A stretch of 64,000 nt of DNA from Escherichia coli (GTDB lineage Bacteria > Pseudomonadota > Gammaproteobacteria > Enterobacterales > Enterobacteriaceae), in assembly GCF_044324785.1 (NCBI RefSeq), contig NZ_CP172128.1; one strand, written 5' to 3'. Positions 3,501 to 6,500 of this stretch are shown here, one piece after another; positions within the stretch are counted from its first letter, which is position 1, and the number at the start of each line of letters is the position of its first letter. The position numbers are program-made.

Positions 3501-6500
3501 TCCGGAGAGTAACGGCATAGCAGAGAGCTTCGTGAAAACGATAAAGCGTGACTACATCAGTATCATGCCTAAACCAGACGGGTTAACGGCAGCAAAGAAC
3601 CTTGCAGAGGCGTTCGAGCATTATAACGAATGGCATCCGCATAGTGCACTGGGTTATCGCTCGCCACGGGAATATCTACGGCAGCAAGCCAGTAATGGGT
3701 TAAGTGATAACAGGTGTCTGGAAATATAGGGGCAAATCCATTATTTTTTTGTATGCTCAGTTATTGATGGATAATAATATTAAATGAATCAGTAAGTTCC
3801 TTACTCTTTCCCTCTGCACAGGTGGTTTTTTATAAAATTCTTCGAAAGGTAATACCTGATATCCCGGAGGCATAGCAACGAAGGGGATACAGATTAAAGA
3901 CATAACACGGATAAGTCACCAGGAGGAATTATGTCTTGGATGAAACTGACGGAAGCAGAACGTAAGCGTATCAACGATGCTTATGCCGCACAGGCTGCAC
4001 AGTTAAAGTTGTCCGGCAGGGATGAACTGCCACGGGAAGTTAAGAGAAAAGTGCGTGTAAAAGTTTTGAGAATGATTCGGGCAGAGCGCAAAGCGAGAAC
4101 CGCAAAGGCTCAACGAACAAAAGCGTATCGTGCCGCAGAGAACACGTTTACCTGGCAGCCGGCGCGACGCAGGTGAGCCGGCCAGCGGAAGAGCCTGTAC
4201 ATAGATTTGTGTAATTGCCTGATTTTGATATGTTCAATCCAGCATCAAATGAAGGTTAATTTATGGACGAAAAACAGTTACAGGCTCTGGCTAACGAACT
4301 GGCCAAAAACCTCAAAACCCCTGAAGACCTCAGTCAGTTTGATCGGCTGCTGAAAAAGCTCAGCGTTGAAGCCGCTCTCAATGCAGAGATGACACACCAT
4401 CTTGGGTATGAGAAAAATCAGTCCAGACCAGGAGCTAACTCCCGCAACGGTTATTACACAAAGACCGTTATCACAGGCGACGGTCCACTGGAACTGCGTA
4501 CTCCGCGCGATCGTGACGGTACCTTCGAACCACAACTGGTAAAGAAAAATCAGACCCGTATTACCGGGATGGATAACCAGATCCTCTCGTTGTATGCCAA
4601 AGGGATGACCACCCGTGAGATAGCCGCTGCGTTCAAAGAACTGTATGACGCAGATATTTCACCGGCACTGATATCAAAGGTTACCGATGCCGTGATGGAG
4701 CAGGTTGTATAATGGCAAAACCGACCACTGGATGCTGTTTACCCCATTGTTTATCTTGACTGTATCGTCCTGAAAGTTCGGCAGGACAGTCGCATCATCA
4801 ACAAATCGGTGTTCCTGGCACTGGGCATCAATATCGAAGGTCAGAAAGAACTGCTGGGTATGTGGCTGGCCGAAAATGAAGGGGCGAAGTTCTGGCTCAA
4901 TGTGCTGACTGAACTGAAAAACCGCGGTCTGAACGATATCCTCATCGCCTGTGTGGATGGCCTGAAAGGCTTCCCGGATGCCATCAACACAGTATATCCG
5001 AAGGCCCGCATCCAGTTATGCATCGTGCATATGGTGCGCAACAGCCTGCGCTTCGTGTCATGGAAGGACTACAAAGCCGTCACTCGCGACCTGAAAGCGA
5101 TTTATCAGGCTCCCACGGAAGAGGCAGGTCAGCAGGCACTGGAAGCGTTCGCTGCGGCCTGGGACAGTCGCTATCCTCAGATAAGCCGAAGCTGGCAGGC
5201 TAACTGGCCGAATCTTGCCACGTTCTTCGCTTATCCAACGGACATCCGCAAAGTGATCTATACGACGAATGCCATCGAGTCGCTAAACAGCGTGATCCGC
5301 CATGCGATCAAAAAGCGTAAAGTGTTCCCGACAGACGACTCGGTGAAAAAAGTGGTGTGGCTGGCAATCCAGTCTGCGTCCCAGAAATGGACGATGCCGT
5401 TGAAGGACTGGCGAATGGCAATGAGCCGCTTTATTATCGAGTTCGGTGACCGCCTGGACGGTCACTTCTGAGAAAGGCATTTACACAGAATCTTAAACAG
5501 GCTCAAGTGAAGCTAAGCACACAATCAATTCAGGTCTTTGACATCCTCCATCTTAACTTCCAAAGGGTACTCCCGCCGACATAAGGCGGGAGTACCCTTT
5601 GGAAGTTAAGATGGAAAACCGACATAAGAACCCTCTGTTATCCTGAAACTCTTATATTTATATAACTTGTGAAGGCGTTATGCACACAACCAATCTTCGC
5701 AAAGTCGGCGTCTCGTTGACATCCTCCACGCCCTGACGAATGTGGAGGAATGTCAATATTAATGTCCGGGCCACTCCTGTTGTTCAGTGACGTGATGTGA
5801 TATTTCTTCTTTAGCTGTAGCCTCATTCTGGAGGTTTGAAGTAAATATACGCTCCATTGTTTGTGCAACCGATGGTGGCATTTTTTCTTCCACACGTTCC
5901 TCTTCCGGACAACTCTGTGTGATATAGCATACGTGCCGTTCTTCCCGGGATGTGGTATTGATGATGTGAACTGCCTTGTTCCACAGGCTGTTTCCCCGGG
6001 CAGAGATATCTGTATCATATTGCGGAAGCAGATCCAGCGATGTTTGTGTTTCGTTAAGCTGCTTCTGGAAGGTATCGATGATACGGTAAGGCTCTGTACG
6101 GTTTTTACGACGTTTACGGGATGGTTTTGCTGTCAGTACACCAATAATGCTGCTGACATGCTCCGGTGTGGGAAAACGGCGCTGCACTGTCCTGGGGACG
6201 AGACGGCGGAGACGCTCCAGGCGGGGGGCTTCAACGGAAATATAGCGGTTGATGACCACCGGATCACTGTCGCAACTTTTCTCGCTGTCCGGAATATACA
6301 CAGAGGCTGACGGCACCACATCCCCCTGGAAAACGGTAAAGAACTCACCGGCATTCAGTCTGATCAAATCCTGCACGTCGATTTTGCTTTCCATCTGGAT
6401 GGTGATCTGGTTACCGTCCACCCAGGACTCACCCATCACACCATCGTGGCGCTGCAGGCTGCCCATTCTGGCCCTAGCCTCTTCACCGGCGGCATTTTTC

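What the first reader, a model, noticed from the sequence alone, without database searches (positions are those of the whole stretch)
5533..5756. Perfect 30-bp palindrome and flanking short direct repeats between the IS256-family element and trbC
5547-5613 is an exact 30-bp inverted repeat with a 7-nt loop, and perfect palindromes of this length are rarely neutral. It is flanked by direct copies of ttgacatcctcca (5537 and 5713) and of ccgacataag (5574 and 5618). A second hairpin (ttgacatcctccac...gtggaggaatgtcaa, 5716-5756) lies 3 nt after the trbC stop. Candidates are a protein-binding site, a strong bidirectional terminator, a miniature mobile element, or the scar of an IS end.
Basis: seen in the sequence. 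Interest (0 to 1): 0.45.

Follow-up and report, generated by a model that had tools for sequence, protein, structure and literature searches.

The report
Palindromic relic of a transposon end
The perfect hairpin next to trbC is the left tip of an IS200/IS605-type jumping gene copied back on itself, so both DNA strands carry that tip; in most junctions checked it is joined to the transposon's 4-base target (CCAT), marking a small rearrangement that removed a restriction gene.

Summary
Window 5547-5577 and 5585-5615 form a perfect 31-nt inverted repeat around a 7-nt loop. It is not related to the neighbouring IS256-family element (IS1414). Its first 41 core bases (5552-5592) are identical to the left end (LE) of an 1,818-bp IS200/IS605-family insertion sequence that encodes TnpA and TnpB. 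Copies of that IS sit in IncI2 plasmids, in phage If1, and in Klebsiella, Photorhabdus and Arsenophonus. The remaining 18 bases are the reverse complement of LE bases 1-18. Each strand therefore reads CCAT|LE. An empty-site comparison shows that CCAT is this IS's target. The same 59-nt core occurs in at least five unrelated contexts. In seven of eight junctions compared with palindrome-free relatives, the flank ends in a native CCAT. Twice the core replaces the 166-200 nt lying between two inverted CCATs. Here it replaced most of a relic and all but five codons of an EcoRII-type restriction gene. Twice it joins unrelated DNAs. Palindrome variants match the LE variant of the local IS, which points to repeated origin by fold-back copying. 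The second hairpin (5716-5756) is an analogous right-end-derived palindrome. TnpA action on both strands is inferred, not shown. This is a new variant of a known kind, of moderate interest.

The parts
5548..5551 (+). CCAT, the target (TAM) of the parent IS, on the top strand and directly 5' of the core. It is native to the older sequence at this site.
   Evidence: The palindrome-free relative pRM10042-1 (L002) reads ..GACATCCTCCAT|GCCC... The IS empty site in pHNSHP45 shows insertion exactly 3' of CCAT with no duplication. All 7 IS copies read are preceded by CCAT.
5552..5610 (.). 59-nt palindromic core. Positions 5552-5592 are LE nucleotides 1-41 of the IS. Positions 5593-5610 are the reverse complement of LE nucleotides 1-18.
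   Evidence: blastn against the IS taken from L005 gives 41/41 on the plus strand and 26/26 on the minus strand. The identical core is in pEGY2 and pEC16-2.
5570..5592 (.). The LE subterminal hairpin: 8-bp stem CTCCCGCC/GGCGGGAG and loop GACATAA. It is the pivot of the palindrome.
   Evidence: The natural LE folds with this stem plus an outer 6-bp stem across a 5x5 internal loop (L005). Its position matches IPL of IS608.
5566..5569 (+). GGTA, the 4 nt directly 5' of the hairpin foot, inferred to be the guide sequence (GL). It is fully complementary, position by position, to CCAT. The complement of 5593-5596 gives the same guide on the bottom strand.
   Evidence: Read from the sequence. The IS608 rule is a guide of 4 nt 5' of the foot and a cleavage site 19 nt 5' of the foot. 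Here CCAT| lies 18 nt 5' of the foot.
5611..5614 (-). CCAT on the bottom strand (ATGG on the top strand), directly 5' of the bottom-strand LE copy. It is native: codons 4-5 of the restriction gene.
   Evidence: L008 and L002 read ..CCAGTTATGGAAAACCGACAT.. without the palindrome.
5611..5625 (-). Remnant of an EcoRII-type restriction endonuclease gene: the first five codons, ATGTCGGTTTTCCAT.
   Evidence: The intact gene in CP088867.1 (L008 1303-2511, minus strand) starts with this sequence and matches Pfam EcoRII-N and EcoRII-C.
5538..5550 (-). Terminal 13 nt (TGGAGGATGTCAA) of the right end of a second, TnpB-type IS200/IS605-family element. It is all that remains here of the relic seen in pRM10042-1.
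   Evidence: L002 keeps about 150 nt of this right end. 47 nt are 94% identical to the tnpB 3' end of the IS (E = 2e-16), and the relic closely resembles the right end after tnpB in L019.
5716..5756 (-). Second hairpin: a palindrome derived from a right end. The last ~31 nt are a right-end terminus (..GTGGAGGATGTCAA|) and the 5' part is an inverted copy of that tail.
   Evidence: It is 93.5% identical to the sequence directly after a tnpB gene in a Salmonella Weltevreden plasmid. A perfect 14-nt-arm version is in the P1-like pMUB-MIN10-2 (L018).
4263..5509 (+). IS1414 (IS256 family) transposase and right end. This is an unrelated neighbour inserted into the pemK-side flank.
   Evidence: Annotations under the matches. 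The flank shared with L002 resumes at about 5507.
5759..8032 (-). trbC (757 codons), the right-hand neighbour.
   Evidence: ORF list. Annotated as TrbC in L001 and L002.

Best explanation
The palindrome is a 'double left end'. It consists of the left end (LE) of an IS200/IS605-family insertion sequence, from its very first base through its subterminal hairpin, followed by an inverted copy of LE bases 1-18. On both DNA strands the sequence therefore reads: target CCAT, cleavage point, 14-nt linker, guide GGTA, hairpin. The second arm was most likely made by fold-back copying at the LE hairpin, because each palindrome variant carries on both arms the substitutions of the LE of the IS resident in the same host group. 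The element is joined to surrounding DNA only at CCAT sites, one on each strand. The proposed mechanism is that the IS's single-strand transposase TnpA, supplied in trans, cleaves and rejoins at CCAT| on either strand, guided by GGTA as in IS608. Each side of the palindrome could then be exchanged onto any CCAT. Two inverted CCATs lying close together would give replacement of the DNA between them. Two distant CCATs would give fusions. In this window the event replaced 200 nt, namely a right-end relic and the restriction gene beyond codon 5, in an ancestor resembling pRM10042-1. Shown here: the sequence derivation, the target of the parent IS, the junction pattern, the replacements and fusions, and the tracking of LE variants. 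Inferred: TnpA catalysis, the fold-back origin, and the order of events. No function for the plasmid is implied. The element is best read as a by-product of transposon activity and a possible hot spot for further rearrangement.
For: 1. Derivation. 41/41 nt match IS nucleotides 1-41 and 26/26 match in reverse complement. The IS encodes Y1_Tnp (E = 6.6e-38) and OrfB_IS605/TnpB.
2. IS boundaries and target. pHNSHP45 reads ..CCAT|tccaggc.., while pECJS-61-63 reads ..CCAT|[1,818 nt CTTAAC..GATGTCAA]|tccaggc... Seven IS copies in different sites all follow CCAT.
3. Architecture parallel to IS608. CCAT| lies 18 nt 5' of the hairpin foot (19 nt in IS608). The 4 nt 5' of the foot, GGTA, complement CCAT. 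At the right end, GAAT-hairpin-ATG-TCAA| uses the same GR and CR as IS608.
4. The same core occurs in at least five contexts: this trbC site, SSU5-like phage-plasmids, two Klebsiella plasmid sites and an Arsenophonus plasmid. There is also a decayed Photorhabdus chromosomal copy.
5. Junctions. Relatives without the palindrome show a native CCAT at 7 of 8 junctions. The core replaces 166 nt in pEC16-2 relative to pLR-48_2 and 200 nt here relative to L002. In L010 and L011 it joins unrelated DNAs.
6. Variant tracking. The E. coli palindrome has AACTTCC, like E. coli and If1 LEs. The Klebsiella palindromes have AACCTCC on both arms, like the Klebsiella IS. The Arsenophonus palindrome has AACCTCC plus CCCACC/GGTGGG and keeps the LE's internal loop GGGTA/GGGAA, exactly like the Arsenophonus IS LE.
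7. Structural precedent. A TnpA dimer can hold two LEs and two targets at once (crystal described in PMC5934647).
Against: No experiment or sequence intermediate shows TnpA acting on the palindrome. In a perfect 31-bp stem both the guide and CCAT are base-paired, which should compete with TnpA recognition. The standard IS608 pathway needs a right end, and none is present on either strand, so the proposed two-sided exchange is not an established reaction. One of the eight junctions (L010 right) shows ATAG, not ATGG, in the closest palindrome-free relative, which is 94% identical. The element is rare: 16 of 5,426 complete E. coli genomes and 0 hits in the metagenome and viral scans. Mobility is therefore at best occasional. 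No copy of the parent IS is in the window.
Confidence: 0.7

Rival explanations
1. It is a local replication scar. An IS copy once sat at each site. A template switch at the LE hairpin (quasi-palindrome correction or fold-back), followed by a microhomology-mediated return, deleted the IS body and nearby DNA. TnpA plays no part and the palindrome is not mobile.
For: Fold-back copying explains why both arms carry the local LE variant. It also explains why the Arsenophonus copy pivots on the outer stem while the E. coli and Klebsiella copies pivot on the inner stem. The rarity of the element fits an accident.
Against: Random template switching gives no reason for the copied arm to stop exactly at the IS tip, or for the rejoin to use exactly the IS's own 4-nt target on the opposite strand, at 7 of 8 junctions in four contexts. 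It would also require a full IS insertion followed by the same rare deletion independently at every site.
Confidence: 0.2
2. It is a hairpin kept by the plasmid for a function, such as a transcription barrier or terminator between trbC and the neighbouring genes, a protein-binding site, or a single-strand initiation signal used during conjugation.
For: It forms a very stable hairpin (-38.8 kcal/mol). It is intergenic and close to the transfer genes.
Against: There is no T-tract on either side and the consensus scan finds no terminator or promoter. No RNA family matches: the only hit is a below-threshold match to a generic microRNA hairpin. The same core lies in non-conjugative phage-plasmids and at fusion points of unrelated DNA, where it destroys an ORF or a gene. 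Related plasmids with the same trbC end do without it.
Confidence: 0.06
3. It is a scar or miniature derivative of the adjacent IS256-family element IS1414.
For: Only proximity: IS1414 ends about 40 nt to the left.
Against: The palindrome with the same flanks occurs in pEGY2 without IS1414, where an IS3-family element abuts instead. It also occurs in other contexts with no IS256-family neighbour. The sequence is identical to an IS200/IS605 left end.
Confidence: 0.01

Closest known systems
Left end of IS608-type (IS200/IS605 family) insertion sequences
   Same: It has a subterminal hairpin, a 4-nt guide directly 5' of the hairpin foot that complements a 4-nt target lying 18-19 nt upstream, insertion 3' of that target without duplication, and a Y1 (HUH) TnpA plus TnpB in the parent element. 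The parent's right end even uses IS608's GAAT and TCAA.
   Different: The LE is present on both strands back to back, sharing a single hairpin. No right end and no genes are present. The target is CCAT rather than TTAC.
PATEs (palindrome-associated transposable elements): gene-less IS200/IS605 derivatives with a left end and a right end
   Same: It is a non-autonomous, gene-less derivative of IS200/IS605 ends that is presumably dependent on TnpA supplied in trans (definition).
   Different: A PATE keeps both LE and RE on one strand and can follow the normal circle pathway. This element has two LEs in inverted orientation and no RE, and it replaces or bridges DNA rather than simply inserting.
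REP / REPIN elements mobilised by RAYT (TnpA_REP) transposases
   Same: These are hairpin-forming repeats related to IS200/IS605 ends. They carry a conserved tetranucleotide at the 5' side on each strand when arranged as inverted pairs, and they have a Y1 HUH enzyme as partner (abstracts listed).
   Different: REPINs are two separate REP hairpins with a spacer. They are present at tens to hundreds of chromosomal copies and have a dedicated single-copy RAYT. This element is one hairpin, is rare, is mostly plasmid-borne, and belongs to an active IS.
Quasi-palindrome correction by intramolecular template switching (established mutational mechanism; stated from general knowledge)
   Same: An imperfect hairpin becomes perfect by copying one arm from the other. 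The GGGAA to TACCC difference between the natural LE or Arsenophonus form and the E. coli form is exactly of this type.
   Different: That mechanism alone does not explain arms that end at the transposase cleavage point, or junctions that always use the IS target.

Membership tests
IS200/IS605-family left end (derivative of) | Sequence identity to the LE of an element encoding a Y1 TnpA (and TnpB) | tested here: met
   41/41 nt match IS nucleotides 1-41. Pfam gives Y1_Tnp at 6.6e-38, plus OrfB_IS605, Cas12f1-like_TNB and HTH_OrfB_IS605.
IS200/IS605-family left end (derivative of) | Abuts the element's specific target tetranucleotide, with no target-site duplication | tested here: met
   The empty site in pHNSHP45 defines CCAT| as the target. 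CCAT precedes the core on both strands. It is native at 7 of 8 junctions checked.
IS200/IS605-family left end (derivative of) | Subterminal hairpin with a 4-nt guide 5' of its foot that pairs with the cleavage site about 19 nt upstream | tested here: met
   GGTA (5566-5569) complements CCAT, and the distance is 18 nt. This was tested by sequence only.
IS200/IS605-family left end (derivative of) | Bound and cleaved by TnpA on single-stranded DNA | not testable with these tools
   This needs biochemistry.
PATE / gene-less IS200/IS605 MITE | Left end and right end (with its TCAA-type motif) on the same strand, flanking a short interior | tested here: not met
   No RE lies on either strand of the core. 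The nearby TGGAGGATGTCAA (5538-5550) is on the opposite strand, pre-dates the palindrome (it is present in L002), and belongs to another element.
PATE / gene-less IS200/IS605 MITE | Simple insertion 3' of the target | tested here: not met
   The core replaces 166 nt and 200 nt between inverted CCATs, or joins unrelated DNAs.
REP / REPIN | High chromosomal copy number with an associated RAYT gene | tested here: not met
   The full palindrome is in 16 of 5,426 E. coli genomes, and only 8 of the 148 matching places of any kind (full palindrome or IS left end) are chromosomal, with at most 2 palindrome copies per plasmid. RAYT linkage was not examined.
Rho-independent (intrinsic) terminator | GC-rich stem-loop followed by a T/U tract | tested here: not met
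   The scan of 5300-6000 finds 0 terminator-like sites. The tails are AAAACC on one strand and GGATGT on the other.
Filamentous-phage packaging signal (considered because of the If1 hit) | Hairpin native to the phage intergenic region, next to gene IV | tested here: not met
   The If1 match (5307-5351) is the LE of the same IS inserted in the 'major intergenic region', with tnpA and tnpB alongside.

The most novel reading that the evidence does not exclude
Left-end hairpins of IS200/IS605 elements recurrently fold back to produce 'double-LE' palindromes. TnpA can process these on both strands, which turns them into two-sided recombination sites. Such sites could swap, delete or fuse any DNA bounded by the 4-nt target, in the manner of cassette exchange or, in the extreme, hairpin-end formation and rejoining. 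This would be an undescribed TnpA-dependent route to plasmid rearrangement. It would also be a plausible living intermediate between IS ends and REPIN-like inverted hairpin repeats.
Probability: 0.3. Interest if true: 0.75.

Novelty: new variant of a known kind. Interest (0 to 1): 0.55.

Why it matters
IS200/IS605 elements and their TnpB partners are under intense study, but the known products of their ends are full elements and LE+RE mini-elements. This case points to another outcome: a palindrome made of two left ends that sits exactly on the element's target on both strands. It is associated with loss of a restriction gene, loss of a small ORF, and fusion of unrelated plasmid segments. If TnpA drives this, a single transposon end would be enough to remodel plasmids. 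A very simple programmable, guide-based exchange reaction could also be tested in vitro. If TnpA does not drive it, the case remains a clean natural example of hairpin-templated palindrome formation with mapped ancestral states.

Tried and rejected
1. Filamentous-phage packaging signal. The hit in phage If1's 'major intergenic region' suggested this at first. Reading the region showed an IS200/IS605 element with tnpA and tnpB, and the match is its left end.
2. RBS plus start codon of a small gene. The If1 context has an ORF starting at the CAT of CCAT. Flanks differ in every other copy, so this was dropped.
3. Integron attC-like site or telomere-resolvase site. Both were rejected from the sequence. 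An exactly symmetric stem lacks attC-type asymmetry, and the asymmetric 7-nt loop is unlike tel sites. No dedicated tool run was made.
4. Terminator or promoter. The consensus scan was negative.
5. Known RNA family. The only hit is a below-threshold match to a microRNA hairpin model, on both strands, which is generic.
6. Empty site for the window's own context. A synthetic CCAT|AAAACC joint found no plasmid with a clean empty site. Only 15 plasmids carry this flank at all. The ancestral state was reconstructed from L002 and L008 instead.
7. Wider distribution. Two metagenome scans and one viral scan returned nothing. The species-representative genome scan returned 3 loci.
8. A target rule for the right-end-derived hairpin. 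The P1-like context lies at a variable tail-fibre boundary and gave no clean palindrome-free relative, so this stayed unresolved.
9. A formal name for the IS. The literature calls the IncI2 copy only 'an IS200 element', distinct from IS683.
10. A published description of LE-LE palindromes. None was found in the searchable library.
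Full report
OBSERVATION. The inverted repeat is real and slightly longer than reported. Arms 5547-5577 and 5585-5615 are 31 nt each and 100% complementary, around the loop GACATAA. As single-stranded DNA it folds at -38.8 kcal/mol, against -7.2 +/- 1.9 for shuffles. The two short direct repeats and the second hairpin (5716-5756) are also present. That hairpin ends 2 nt before the trbC stop codon. To the left lies IS1414, an IS256-family element carrying astA. To the right lies trbC. The same sequence is present in a dozen independently assembled chicken-associated E. 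coli plasmids, so it is not an assembly artefact.

WHAT THE PALINDROME IS MADE OF. A search with the palindrome alone found about 150 plasmids, and the filamentous phage If1, that match only positions 2-46. In every case read, these 45 nt abut an IS200/IS605-family element with divergent tnpA and tnpB. Aligning three copies fixed the element's ends. An IncI2 plasmid lacking the element gave the empty site. pHNSHP45 reads ..gcgtgCCAT|tccaggc.., while pECJS-61-63 reads ..CCAT|[1,818 nt, CTTAAC...GATGTCAA]|tccaggc... The IS therefore inserts 3' of CCAT without duplication, as this family does. Its proteins match Y1_Tnp and OrfB_IS605/TnpB. Seven copies in different sites all follow CCAT, while the right flank is not conserved.

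The window's core (5552-5610, 59 nt) is IS nucleotides 1-41 followed by the reverse complement of nucleotides 1-18. The pivot is the IS's own subterminal hairpin, CTCCCGCC-GACATAA-GGCGGGAG. The natural LE is only an imperfect hairpin, with an inner 8-bp stem, a 5x5 internal loop GGGTA/GGGAA and an outer 6-bp stem.

PARALLEL WITH IS608. In IS608 the left cleavage site (TTAC) lies 19 nt 5' of the hairpin foot. It is recognised by a 4-nt guide (AAAG) directly 5' of the foot. The right end uses guide GAAT and site TCAA (PMC3201880; PMC5934647). In this IS, CCAT| lies 18 nt 5' of the foot and the 4 nt before the foot are GGTA, complementary to CCAT at all four positions. The parent IS's right end reads GAAT-hairpin-ATG-TCAA|. 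This agreement rests on sequence only. It makes CCAT and GGTA the likely cleavage site and guide. It also means the palindrome carries a complete left-end recognition module on each strand.

OTHER COPIES AND THEIR JUNCTIONS. The full palindrome is rare. It is in 18 PLSDB records and in 16 of 5,426 complete E. coli genomes. Viral and metagenome scans found none. Even so, it occurs in at least five unrelated contexts:
- this trbC-proximal site in IncK2/Z and IncI-type plasmids;
- SSU5-like phage-plasmids (pEC16-2);
- two sites in Klebsiella plasmids, both present in pINF237_02;
- an Arsenophonus apicola plasmid.
A decayed copy also lies in the Photorhabdus asymbiotica chromosome.

Relatives lacking the palindrome allow the junctions to be read.
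- In pLR-48_2 the sequence is ..CAACCAT|(166 nt)|ATGGCTGC... In pEC16-2 the 59-nt core sits exactly in place of those 166 nt, destroying a small ORF.
- In the window's lineage, pRM10042-1 (L002) reads ..CCTCCAT|(200 nt)|ATGGAAAACC.., and the window has the core in place of the 200 nt.
- In the Klebsiella copies the two flanks are unrelated DNAs. At L010 an IS3-family transposase gene meets a DUF2913-gene region. At L011 a ColE1-type plasmid segment meets a ccdB-side segment.
- Direct reading of palindrome-free relatives shows a native CCAT (or ATGG on the other side) at three of those four junctions. The fourth relative, 94% identical, has ATAG.
In total, seven of eight junctions are verified as a native CCAT-3' joined to the 5'-CTTAAC of the core on the respective strand.

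HISTORY OF THIS LOCUS. CP088867.1 (IncK2/Z) shows the older state. An EcoRII-type restriction gene starts at ATGTCGGTTTTCCAT.. on the minus strand, next to a cytosine methyltransferase gene and downstream of trbC. pRM10042-1 keeps 47 nt of that gene, fused to the 3' end (tnpB end plus right end) of a second, TnpB-type IS200/IS605 element, followed by pemK. The window keeps only five codons of the restriction gene (5611-5625) and the last 13 nt of that right end (5538-5550), with the palindrome core between them. IS1414 later cut the pemK side.

TTGACATCCTCCA is the reverse complement of two right-end termini. The CCGACATAAG at 5619-5628 is the restriction gene's start region. Its 10-nt identity with the LE loop existed before the two were brought together. 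I estimate that identity would arise by chance about 1% of the time at this locus, and I leave it unexplained.

ORIGIN OF THE SECOND ARM. Palindrome variants follow the LE variant of the IS found in the same host group.
- E. coli palindromes have AACTTCC, like the E. coli plasmid and If1 LEs.
- Klebsiella palindromes have AACCTCC on both arms, like the K. pneumoniae chromosomal IS.
- The Arsenophonus palindrome has AACCTCC and CCCACC/GGTGGG on both arms, and it keeps the LE's internal loop, exactly like the two Arsenophonus IS copies read.
The apparent compensatory changes are thus best explained by copying one arm from the other, with a pivot at the inner stem in E. coli and Klebsiella and at the outer stem in Arsenophonus. 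This implies at least three origins, or continuing homogenisation against the resident LE. It does not require selection for the hairpin.

MECHANISM (INFERRED). Fold-back copying alone does not explain two things: why the copied arm stops at the exact transposase cleavage point, and why the far junction uses the IS's own 4-nt target on the opposite strand. The simplest reading is that TnpA, supplied in trans, cleaves 3' of CCAT on either strand and joins the 5' end of the LE to another CCAT-3'OH. That is its normal chemistry. Applied to both strands, it would yield replacement of DNA between two inverted CCATs, or fusion of distant DNAs, which is what is seen. A TnpA dimer holding two LEs and two targets has been crystallised, so LE-LE synapsis is physically possible.

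Against this reading, the perfect stem hides both the guide and the target. No right end is available for the standard circle pathway. One junction is unverified. The element is rare. I put 0.7 on the combined statement: near-certain for the derivation, about two in three for TnpA involvement. A pure replication-scar model gets 0.2.

THE SECOND HAIRPIN. On the minus strand, 5716-5756 reads TTGACATT-CCTCCAC-(12 nt)-GTGGAGG-ATGTCAA|. Its last ~31 nt are 93.5% identical to the sequence directly after a tnpB gene in a Salmonella Weltevreden plasmid, which is a right end terminating in TCAA. Its 5' part is an inverted copy of the terminal tail and replaces the GAAT guide. A perfect version with 14-nt arms lies in a P1-like phage-plasmid (L018), and weaker copies are in about 25 other plasmids. 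It is thus the right-end counterpart of the same tip-hairpin-inverted-tip theme, and it probably can no longer be cleaved. No target rule could be tested for it.

COMPARISON AND NOVELTY. The element works like, and derives from, an IS608-type left end.
- It is not a PATE, because it has no right end and is not a simple insertion (for the definition).
- It is not a REP or REPIN, because it is a single hairpin at low copy number.
- It is not a terminator, not a known RNA, and not related to IS1414.
I found no description of double-left-end palindromes in the searchable literature. That library is incomplete, so this is weak evidence of novelty. I rate it a new variant of a known kind, with interest 0.55. 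It is ordinary in being transposon debris. It is unusual in its exact two-strand target junctions, its recurrent origin, and the testable prospect of a transposase-driven exchange reaction that needs only one kind of end.

Noticed in passing
window 5716-5756; L018 1501-1541; L019 1501-1531: The hairpin just after trbC belongs to a small dispersed family of palindromes derived from right ends (tail-hairpin-inverted tail) of a TnpB-type IS200/IS605 element. A perfect copy lies in a P1-like phage-plasmid, and about 25 weaker copies lie elsewhere.
   Followed up: partly
L004 (phage If1, NC_001954) 5311-7137: The annotated 'major intergenic region' and 'ORF348' of filamentous phage If1 contain a full copy of the same IS200/IS605 element. 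Its tnpA appears frameshifted relative to the plasmid copies, and ORF348 is tnpB. Part of the If1 reference genome is therefore an IS insertion.
   Followed up: partly
window 5611-5625 (minus); L008 1-2511: An EcoRII-type restriction-modification pair sits next to trbC in the IncK2/Z plasmid CP088867.1. In the window only the first five codons of the endonuclease gene survive, and pRM10042-1 keeps 47 nt.
   Followed up: yes
window 5576-5585 and 5619-5628: There is a 10-nt identity (CCGACATAAG) between the LE hairpin loop region and the start region of the restriction gene. Both copies pre-date their juxtaposition. My rough estimate is that this would arise by chance about 1% of the time at this locus. 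Whether it influenced target choice is unknown.
   Followed up: partly
window 5514-5529 and 5679-5694: A 16-mer pair (TAAGCACACAATCAAT and TATGCACACAACCAAT, 14 of 16 identical) lies at a similar distance 3' of each right-end terminus on the minus strand. It may be chance, or it may reflect an older duplicated unit.
   Followed up: no
L002 4048-4247 (minus strand); L019 280-1531: The 200 nt that pRM10042-1 has in place of the palindrome comprise 32 nt of the restriction gene (the rest of the 47 nt that plasmid keeps) followed by a relic. Part of that relic is the tnpB 3' end and right end (the region that encodes the TnpB guide RNA scaffold) of an element found intact after a tnpB gene in a Salmonella Weltevreden plasmid. 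That region gives a weak, below-threshold Rfam match to HgcC.
   Followed up: partly
L009 (pTB-nb2) about 1996-4710: In one sister plasmid an IS66-family element has inserted a few bases to the right of the palindrome. In pEGY2 an IS3-family element, rather than IS1414, abuts the left flank. The short stretch around the palindrome has collected several independent IS insertions.
   Followed up: no
window 4263-5471: The IS1414 transposase reading frame is split in the window (ORFs 4263-4712 and 4809-5471). The sister-plasmid annotation marks it as a pseudogene with an internal stop. astA (EAST1) is annotated within this IS in a related plasmid.
   Followed up: no
window about 5759-5896: Matches to the trbC of typical IncI1 plasmids stop about 140 nt before the stop codon (megablast matches start at window ~5896, 92% identity). 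The 3' end of trbC here is therefore a variant shared only with the IncK2/Z and IncI-gamma group.
   Followed up: no
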